Shown here: positions 61,953 to 63,246 of the stretch, piece by piece
Position numbering within the stretch: the stretch's first letter is position 1
How the letters are laid out: each line of letters starts with the position of its first letter
Sequence record: PP925840.1
DNA from: Escherichia phage SholemSchwarzbard
Strand: one strand, 5' to 3'
DNA length: 64,000 bases
Translations under genes and position numbers: made by a program
The notes under the pieces: generated by a model
Told to the model about the DNA's origin: nothing
What the model saw: only the letters and a program-made list of their open reading frames with translations
Databases searched by the model: none

Positions 61953-62791
61953 TAGAATGCTCCTTGGAAAATATTATCACCACAAGTAGGTCTATTATAC
62001 AAATACTCTATGCCACCAGGTTTAATATAGTTCCATGTCTGAAACGGATGTGTCTGATATGGATGATATAGATGATTATAAGGATTAAACCCAGGAGTTC
62101 TCCAGGTAGTGTTCCAACGAAAAGAATCATTTTTAATCATCTTTTCAATTACATCTTTTATAGCTTTTTCACTATCAAAACTTTCTTTATTTTCCTTCGG
62201 TGAAAAAAGTTTATTTTCTACATCATTCCATGTATAAACTCGCTGCGCAGTTTTTGGAATATTGTCACGCTCTCCTCGCGCCATCCAATAAACAGGAACA
62301 TTTAATATTTCACTCGCATGATCGCAATGATGCGCGAGATCGTCAATATAACAAATTACGTTATATTTCTCTTTTGCCTTTTTGAACAACTCTTCTTTTG
62401 AAGAATCATGACCACACATCATTACTTCTGAGAAGGCACCAGGAAAAAGAGCATTCAAATTAAATTGACGATTCAACAGAGCGTCAATAGAATCACCCAA
62501 TGCTGTAACAGCTACAAAATTATAATCTTCTTTTAATTTGTTAATTACACACAGTGCATCTTTATATGGAGACAAATAACGAATAAAATCTGATCGATTA
62601 TATTTTTCAATTAACTTGACACCAAGTTCTTCATCACAATTAAAGAGTTTACCTGGAGAAATAAATTTCTCATCTTGGATCATTTTTAAAATATGTTCTA
62701 ACGGAAGATTATATTTCTGAGCAAAATAAGGAAGACCTGATTGCCAGCTTAAACATACTCCATCAATATCAGTTAAAATAGTAGGCTTCAT
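61952..62791 (-). CDS. HAD-superfamily hydrolase-like protein (279 aa), 30.2-like position
   Basis: N-terminal motif I ILTDIDGVCL (DxDG[VT]); later YIDDLAHH resembles motif IV. Confidence 0.65.
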   Translation of the reverse strand: MKPTILTDIDGVCLSWQSGLPYFAQKYNLPLEHILKMIQDEKFISPGKLFNCDEELGVKLIEKYNRSDFIRYLSPYKDALCVINKLKEDYNFVAVTALGDSIDALLNRQFNLNALFPGAFSEVMMCGHDSSKEELFKKAKEKYNVICYIDDLAHHCDHASEILNVPVYWMARGERDNIPKTAQRVYTWNDVENKLFSPKENKESFDSEKAIKDVIEKMIKNDSFRWNTTWRTPGFNPYNHLYHPYQTHPFQTWNYIKPGGIEYLYNRPTCGDNIFQGAF

Positions 62792-63246
62792 AGAGAGTCT
62801 CTTAATAGGTTTAACACATCAATAAATTCAGCTTCGGTTAGTATTGTATCATCTTTTGTTAGACCACTAGCCATGCTGTGCTTCAAAACTTTTCCTTTTG
62901 AGGCTTGTAATGCATCGCGAAAGCCCTTGTTTTGGAACGCTGCTTCAAAATATGCATTTGTGTATAATTCTTTCCACGCTGGAGAGTATCTTGAAAACGG
63001 AACTCCAAGCCAGAAGAGGGTCCCACGGTCCTGAGCTCTAGCATAAGACCTTCCAGCTTGTTGGGCGGCAAGCCCGGATAACCCAAATATACGTCTTTGC
63101 TGTTCAACATTTTTCACCTTACACCCTTGGAGGAATCCTTCGAGACCTCCAAATTGAATGCCATCCATAACGAAAGGCCATTGGGCGAAATTACTTAATG
63201 CGCATGATGGCCATTTAAAATTGCTTCTTATCTCTAGCTCAGACAT
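62788..63246 (-). CDS. NADAR-domain (YbiA-like) protein (152 aa), 30.3-like position
   Basis: ALSNFAQWPFVMDGIQFGGLEGFLQGCKV parallels the YbiA/NADAR core (FSNFAAWP...EHYFQAQKF) as I recall it. Confidence 0.6.
   Translation of the reverse strand: MSELEIRSNFKWPSCALSNFAQWPFVMDGIQFGGLEGFLQGCKVKNVEQQRRIFGLSGLAAQQAGRSYARAQDRGTLFWLGVPFSRYSPAWKELYTNAYFEAAFQNKGFRDALQASKGKVLKHSMASGLTKDDTILTEAEFIDVLNLLRDSL

What the first reader, a model, noticed from the sequence alone, without database searches (positions are those of the whole stretch)
62788..63246. NADAR-domain protein encoded a few kb from the alt ADP-ribosyltransferase pair
The 152-aa protein carries the YbiA/NADAR core (ALSNFAQWPFVMDGIQF...EGFLQGCKV). 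NADAR enzymes process ADP-ribose derivatives and some reverse guanine ADP-ribosylation on DNA made by DarT-type toxins. In a phage this is a plausible anti-defence function, and together with the two alt genes and the ligase it suggests a local ADP-ribosylation write/erase neighbourhood, though that grouping may be coincidental.
Basis: partly seen in the sequence, partly recalled or inferred. Interest (0 to 1): 0.55.

Follow-up and report, generated by a model that had tools for sequence, protein, structure and literature searches.

The report
T4 AdfN (gp30.3) anti-DarT NADAR enzyme

Summary
The 152-aa ORF at 62788..63246 (minus strand) is real. It is 149/152 identical to phage T4 gp30.3. It matches Pfam PF08010 (Phage_30_3, E 1.3e-69) but not the general NADAR model PF08719 at E<=1. 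NADAR membership is supported by other evidence:
- 34 of 81 family members hit PF08719.
- The family profile hits E. coli YbiA in the PDB.
- The catalytic Glu36 and Lys43 and the phage-type His123 are invariant across the family.
- The C-terminal helix lost in the inactive RB69 allele is intact.

T4 gp30.3 is already published as a NADAR (Schuller 2023). It is active on guanine-ADP-ribose in vitro (Toxins 2024, 2026). As AdfN it is necessary and sufficient against DarTG1 (Johannesman et al. 2024/2025; HIDEN-SEQ 2025).

The proposed "write/erase neighbourhood" with alt and the ligase is not supported as a functional module. The ligase is ATP-dependent and Alt is annotated as modifying RNA polymerase. 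An Alt-like gene lies within 9 kb in only 2 of 10 non-Tequatrovirus contexts, on the opposite strand both times.

Verdict: correct, already known, low interest.

The parts
62788..63246 (-). adfN (gene 30.3): 152-aa phage-type NADAR DNA ADP-ribosylglycohydrolase. Catalytic E36 and K43, phage-type H123 in the last beta-strand, and an intact C-terminal helix (residues 138-151).
63239..63454 (-). Gene 30.4 homologue (71 aa). Its stop overlaps the adfN start by 8 nt, so it belongs to the same tightly packed minus-strand gene string.
   Evidence: 49% identical to T4 gp30.4.
61952..62791 (-). Gene 30.2 (279 aa), immediately downstream. Its ATG overlaps the adfN TGA (ATGA). It has a HAD-superfamily phosphatase-like fold. 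It is listed as context; a role in the AdfN function is not shown.
   Evidence: AF2 model pLDDT 84. Every Foldseek PDB hit listed (top 50) is a HAD-superfamily fold. D8, D10, K132, D150 and D151 are invariant.

Best explanation
The gene is the orthologue of phage T4 30.3 (adfN) in another Tequatrovirus. Its product is a minimal, core-only NADAR-fold N-glycosidase. When the host DarT1 toxin ADP-ribosylates guanine in replicating phage DNA, AdfN hydrolyses the guanine-ADP-ribose bond. This releases ADP-ribose, restores unmodified DNA and lets replication proceed. In effect it is an orphan DarG1-like antitoxin carried by the phage. Shown here: the ORF, its near-identity to T4 AdfN, the NADAR fold, conservation of the catalytic Glu/Lys/His, and the intact C-terminus. 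Taken from published experiments on the T4 protein: the enzymatic activity, the E36A/K43A loss of function, the requirement for resistance to DarTG1, and the poor activity in uninfected cells. Inferred: that this 98%-identical allele behaves the same way.
Against: There is no direct hit to the general NADAR Pfam model for this sequence at E<=1, and no NCBIfam hit. The activity of this particular allele was not measured. Three residues differ from the tested T4 protein. Published data show that T4 AdfN does not neutralise DarT1 in uninfected E. coli, so its in vivo substrate preference (hydroxymethylated phage DNA) is not fully explained.
Confidence: 0.93

Rival explanations
1. AdfN is the eraser for the phage's own ADP-ribosyltransferases (Alt and its paralogue next door, or ModA/ModB). 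On this view it forms a genuine local write/erase module that tunes or reverses phage-made ADP-ribosylation of protein or RNA.
For: Two full-length alt-type genes lie 3-7 kb away on the same strand. Acinetobacter phage Kimel keeps 30.3-30.2-ligase-alt together. [quoted passage not shown] NADARs of all families also remove G-ADPr from RNA (PMC12945103).
Against: An Alt-like gene lies within 9 kb in only 2 of 10 non-Tequatrovirus gp30.3 contexts, and on the opposite strand both times. Six contexts outside Straboviridae or from metagenomes have none. The T4 record annotates Alt as a capsid-packaged mono-ADP-ribosyltransferase of RNA polymerase (that it targets arginine is my own knowledge), and no NADAR activity on arginine-ADPr is reported in the papers read. 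The DarTG1 phenotype is fully explained by DNA de-ADP-ribosylation.
Confidence: 0.04
2. The protein mainly degrades soluble ADP-ribose-derived molecules, such as immune signalling nucleotides or riboflavin-pathway intermediates as YbiA does, rather than macromolecular adducts.
For: YbiA-family NADARs are N-glycosidases of riboflavin intermediates, and Iyer et al. proposed soluble ADPr derivatives as the preferred substrate of phage NADARs (PMC9503650). NUDIX/nudE genes lie 2.5-3 kb away in two distant contexts.
Against: The T4 protein has been shown directly to hydrolyse guanine-ADPr on DNA, and its genetic requirement is specific to DarTG1. The phage family has His where the YbiA subfamily has its defining Glu.
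Confidence: 0.03

Closest known systems
Phage T4 gp30.3 / AdfN (anti-DarT factor NADAR; Pfam PF08010 Phage_30_3)
   Same: 98% identical (149/152). Same length and same genomic slot between 30.4 and 30.2, upstream of ligase gene 30. Same E36/K43/H123 and an intact C-terminal helix.
   Different: Three conservative substitutions (K11R, F104I, M125I). The host phage differs from T4 nearby: it has a full second alt paralogue, lacks 30.5 and has a diverged 30.4.
DarG1 antitoxin NADARs of DarTG1 systems (BC4488 subfamily; e.g. G. lovleyi NADAR, PDB 8bat; E. coli C7 NADAR)
   Different: No adjacent DarT toxin gene. His instead of Asp in the last strand. A core-only 152-aa protein without the N-terminal extension of DarG1 (8bat chain is 219 residues). 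The T4 protein cannot replace DarG1 in uninfected cells.
E. coli YbiA (PDB 2b3w) and the YbiA subfamily of NADARs
   Different: About 20% identity. YbiA has Glu in the last strand where this protein has His. YbiA has a different genomic context (a LexA-controlled operon) and does not protect against DarT1.
NADAR(Bas32) and NADAR(Bas60) of T5-like and Vequintavirinae phages
   Same: Phage-encoded NADARs that counter DarTG1 enzymatically.
   Different: They belong to other branches of the NADAR tree, were acquired independently, and neutralise DarT1 even without infection, unlike T4 AdfN.
T4 Tk.4 / AdfM macrodomain and AdfA (gp61.2)
   Same: Other T4 counter-measures to DarT toxins.
   Different: AdfM is a macrodomain proposed to act on DarT2 thymidine-ADPr. 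AdfA associates with DarT1 in a two-hybrid assay and has no enzymatic domain. Neither has the NADAR fold.

Membership tests
NADAR superfamily | NADAR alpha+beta fold: helical core flanked by small beta-hairpins | tested here: met
NADAR superfamily | Catalytic Glu and phosphate-binding Lys seven residues apart (Pn E43/K50; E. coli C7 E88/K95) | tested here: met
   E36 and K43 are invariant in 81 homologues. The profile alignment to YbiA places them on SEHYFQAQK. The residue roles come from PMC11543638 and PMC11257639.
NADAR superfamily | [quoted passage not shown] | tested here: met
   H123 is invariant and lies in the last strand of the model, residues 120-123. The His variant is described.
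NADAR superfamily | Direct match to Pfam PF08719 (NADAR/DUF1768) | tested here: inconclusive
   This sequence gives no hit at E<=1, but 34 of 81 family members do hit PF08719, best E 1.5e-7.
NADAR superfamily | Hydrolysis of the guanine-ADP-ribose N-glycosidic bond | not testable with these tools
   Published for the 98%-identical T4 protein.
Phage NADAR / gp30.3 / AdfN family (PF08010) | Match to PF08010 above the gathering score | tested here: met
   232.8 bits against a cut-off of 36; E 1.3e-69; model positions 1-138 of 138.
Phage NADAR / gp30.3 / AdfN family (PF08010) | Orthology with T4 30.3: near-identity and the same position between 30.4 and 30.2-30.1-30 | tested here: met
   149/152 identical. 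The gene order matches the T4 record.
Phage NADAR / gp30.3 / AdfN family (PF08010) | Full-length allele with the C-terminal helix, not the RB69-type frameshift that removes the last 15 residues | tested here: met
   152 aa, the same end as T4. The model has a helix at 138-151. The RB69 defect is described.
Phage NADAR / gp30.3 / AdfN family (PF08010) | Confers resistance to DarTG1 during infection | not testable with these tools
   Shown for T4 and T2 alleles.
DarG1 antitoxin of a DarTG1 toxin-antitoxin operon | Encoded next to a DarT1 ADP-ribosyltransferase toxin gene | tested here: not met
   The neighbours are 30.4 (no Pfam family) and 30.2 (HAD fold). Pfam scans of the neighbours gave no DarT-type domain.
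DarG1 antitoxin of a DarTG1 toxin-antitoxin operon | Asp in the last strand and N-terminal extension elements | tested here: not met
   The position holds His123 instead. The protein is 152 aa and core only, against 219 residues for 8bat.
   An Alt-like ORF lies within 9 kb in 2 of 10 non-Tequatrovirus contexts, on the opposite strand both times.
   The T4 record annotates Alt as an RNA polymerase ADP-ribosyltransferase. Published AdfN substrates are guanine-ADPr in DNA and RNA. No test on arginine-ADPr was found in the papers read.

The most novel reading that the evidence does not exclude
Besides countering DarT1, AdfN may also act on products of the phage's own Alt-type ADP-ribosyltransferases. 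Alternatively, it may work as a pair with the translationally coupled HAD-fold phosphatase gp30.2, which would make this stretch a real ADP-ribose processing module and not just inherited synteny. Nothing here excludes this. However, linkage to alt and to gp30.2 is each seen in only 2 of 10 distant contexts, and AdfN alone suffices genetically.
Probability: 0.05. Interest if true: 0.55.

Novelty: already known. Interest (0 to 1): 0.1.

Why it matters
AdfN is a clear case of a lytic phage carrying an orphan antitoxin-like enzyme that chemically repairs its DNA after attack by a host toxin. That story has been published and independently confirmed for the T4 protein, which differs from this one at three residues. 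What remains useful here is annotation. Almost all of the sampled phage records among the 1510 with a homologue still label the gene "hypothetical protein". The generic NADAR HMM also misses this sequence, so pipelines should transfer the AdfN/NADAR name through PF08010.

Tried and rejected
- **Direct sequence matches failed or were weak.** The direct Pfam NADAR (PF08719) match failed at E<=1. NCBIfam gave nothing for gp30.3 or gp30.2. PHROGs gave only "unknown function" families.
- **Single-sequence PDB search.** phmmer found only a chance hit, 3rjz at E 0.8. The family profile was needed to reach YbiA.
- **Promoter/terminator scan of 59900..64000.** Counts did not differ from shuffled sequence, so no transcription-unit boundary could be assigned.
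- **Alt-NADAR module.** I surveyed 10 non-Tequatrovirus contexts and rejected it as a conserved module.
- **gp30.2 as an obligate AdfN partner.** The gp30.2 family is adjacent in only 2 of 10 contexts. gp30.2 and the HAD enzyme that follows the NADAR in Vibrio phage QD01 share only the N-terminal DxD motif.
- **The ligase as an NAD-linked component.** Rejected, because it is the ATP-dependent T4 gp30.
- **Not done.** I ran no further search on a NADAR-family profile for HHalign, because fold and literature already settle membership. Active-site geometry in the model could not be inspected because model coordinates are not exposed.

Full report
**Observation.** The window carries an ATG-initiated 152-aa ORF at 62788..63246 on the minus strand, and both quoted motifs are present in it.
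- It sits in a tightly packed minus-strand gene string.
- The upstream 71-aa ORF (63239..63454) overlaps its start by 8 nt.
- Its TGA overlaps the ATG of the downstream 279-aa ORF (61952..62791) as ATGA.
- The region is 96-98% identical at the DNA level to many Tequatrovirus (T4-like) genomes.
- Against the T4 reference record, the gene order is 30.6, 30.4, 30.3, 30.2, 30.1, 30 (ligase), alt.1, alt.

**Identity.**
- The protein is 149/152 identical to T4 gp30.3. The differences are K11R, F104I and M125I.
- It matches Pfam PF08010 "Bacteriophage protein GP30.3" over the full model: 232.8 bits against a cut-off of 36.
- NCBIfam has no model for it, and PHROGs calls the family "unknown function".

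**Is it a NADAR?** I collected 107 homologous clusters and aligned 81 full-length members, down to 35% identity. Four lines of evidence agree.
1. 34 of the 81 members individually hit PF08719, with a best E of 1.5e-7.
2. The only PDB hit of the family profile is E. coli YbiA (2b3w, E 0.0065). The alignment places LSNF...EGFLQ..K on FSNF...SEHYFQAQK.
4. The invariant columns include S18-N19-F20, E36, K43 and H123.
   - Schuller et al. (PMC11543638) define the catalytic residues as Glu43 and Lys50 in the Phytophthora enzyme, with the same seven-residue spacing.
   - They define a third residue in the last strand that is Glu in YbiA, Asp in DarG1-type NADARs and His in phage NADARs.
   - H123 lies in the last strand of the model, residues 120-123.

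**What is already known.** T4 gp30.3 has been studied directly.
- Bioinformatic work placed gp30.3 in the phage NADAR family (according to PMC11257639, which credits Schuller et al. 2023).
- Toxins 2024 (PMC11125620) showed that the purified T4 NADAR removes guanosine-ADPr but not thymidine-ADPr. It does not rescue E. coli from DarT1 in the absence of infection.
- Johannesman, Carlson and LeRoux (PMC11257639; the published version is cited as Nat Commun 2025;16:1598) mapped DarTG1 resistance to gene 30.3 using RB69 x T2/T4 crosses and renamed it adfN.
  - The E36A and K43A variants are inactive.
  - The purified protein removes ADP-ribose from DarT1-modified DNA.
  - The RB69 allele is dead because a frameshift removes the last helix.
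  - AdfN works poorly outside the Tevenvirinae context.
- A transposon screen preprint (10.1101/2025.11.20.689424) independently found 30.3/adfN conditionally essential on DarTG1 hosts.
- Toxins 2026 (PMC12945103) re-tested the T4 enzyme. It describes the phage NADAR as consisting solely of the core domain, and its summary table credits cytidine-ADPr removal to the NADAR and YbiA families only.

The window allele keeps E36, K43, H123 and the full C-terminus, so I expect it to be functional. That last step is an inference.

**The neighbourhood claim.**
- The ligase is 99% identical to T4 gp30, which the T4 record describes as ATP-dependent, so it has no NAD link.
- Alt is annotated there as a capsid-packaged mono-ADP-ribosyltransferase of RNA polymerase. 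That chemistry is different from guanine-ADPr in DNA.
- I examined ten gp30.3 contexts outside Tequatrovirus with profile and phmmer searches of six-frame ORFs:
  - three metagenomic phage-like contigs;
  - Acinetobacter phage Kimel;
  - Klebsiella phage phiKp_12;
  - Vibrio phage QD01;
  - Rhizobium phage RHph_I1_9;
  - Ralstonia phage RSP15;
  - Aeromonas phage AhFM11;
  - Escherichia phage JEP8.

| Gene within 9 kb of gp30.3 | Contexts (of 10) | Note |
|---|---|---|
| Alt-like gene | 2 | Kimel and QD01; opposite strand in both |
| DNA ligase | 4 | |
| gp30.2 family | 2 | |

- The alt proximity therefore looks like inherited T4-core synteny and not a selected module.
- The general observation that T4-like NADARs sit in early regions along with ARTs was already made by Iyer et al. 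2022 (PMC9503650).

**Side observations.**
- **gp30.2.** It has no Pfam or NCBIfam hit, but it folds confidently over residues 1-200. Every structure listed in the Foldseek output is a HAD-superfamily fold, including 5'(3')-deoxyribonucleotidases. It has an invariant DxD nucleophile motif (D8, D10) plus K132 and D150-D151.
- **Second alt gene (685 aa).** It is a full-length version of the gene whose remnants are annotated in T4 as alt.-1 and alt.-2. Residues 1-117 are 95-98% identical to those two ORFs.
- **Annotated internal ORF 30.3'.** It accumulates 9 non-synonymous and 1 synonymous change against T4. The same 10 substitutions are 8 synonymous and 2 non-synonymous in the 30.3 frame, which argues against 30.3' being a constrained protein.
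- **Genes 30.5 and 30.4.** Gene 30.5 is absent, and 30.4 is only 49% identical to T4.

**Verdict.** The gene is the already characterised anti-DarTG1 enzyme AdfN. The novelty class is "already known" and the interest is low. The remaining open points concern the T4 enzyme in general and are not specific to this window:
- why AdfN prefers the Tevenvirinae context;
- whether it ever touches the phage's own ART products;
- what gp30.2 does.

Noticed in passing
window 61952..62791 (-): gp30.2 (279 aa) starts at an ATG that overlaps the adfN stop. It has no Pfam or NCBIfam hit but is predicted to have a HAD-superfamily phosphatase/nucleotidase-like fold. Every structure listed in the Foldseek PDB output is a HAD fold (E down to 4e-8), including 5'(3')-deoxyribonucleotidases. 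D8, D10, K132, D150 and D151 are invariant. The C-terminal ~60 residues are low-confidence and variable. No paper mentioning gp30.2 was found.
   Followed up: partly
window 55831..57888 (-) and 57892..59988 (-): There are two full-length Alt-type ADP-ribosyltransferase genes in tandem, 40% identical to each other. The 698-aa copy is 70% identical to T4 Alt. The first ~117 residues of the 685-aa copy are 95-98% identical to T4 alt.-1 plus alt.-2, so those T4 ORFs are remnants of this second gene.
   Followed up: partly
window 62883..63110 (-): This is the homologue of the annotated T4 internal ORF 30.3' (75 aa, +1 frame inside adfN). Against T4, the 10 nucleotide differences in the overlap are 8 synonymous and 2 non-synonymous in the 30.3 frame, but 1 synonymous and 9 non-synonymous in the 30.3' frame. 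This suggests 30.3' is not a selected protein.
   Followed up: yes
window 63239..63746 (-): Gene 30.5 of T4 is absent here. The 30.4 homologue is only 49% identical to T4, while the flanking 30.3 and 30.6 are 98% identical. This is a local hypervariable spot next to adfN.
   Followed up: no
L011:9007-9961 (Vibrio phage QD01); L002:11115-11879; L009:5934-6461: In distant phages the gp30.3 homologue sits near other nucleotide or ADP-ribose-processing genes. In QD01, a different HAD 5'(3')-deoxyribonucleotidase gene overlaps its 3' end. In a ~308-kb metagenomic contig and in Acinetobacter phage Kimel, a NUDIX/nudE ADP-ribose pyrophosphatase-type gene lies 2.5-3 kb away.
   Followed up: no
L013:3733-13762 (Ralstonia phage RSP15); L014:5890-8984 (Aeromonas phage AhFM11): In these two phages the gp30.3 homologue lies inside or directly after a large tRNA gene array, unlike in T4.
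   Followed up: no
phage database hits: 1510 phage records encode a gp30.3 homologue. In nearly all sampled records it is still annotated "hypothetical protein", with occasional "swarming motility YbiA-like protein" or "GP30.3 family protein". The AdfN/NADAR function has not propagated into annotations.
   Followed up: no
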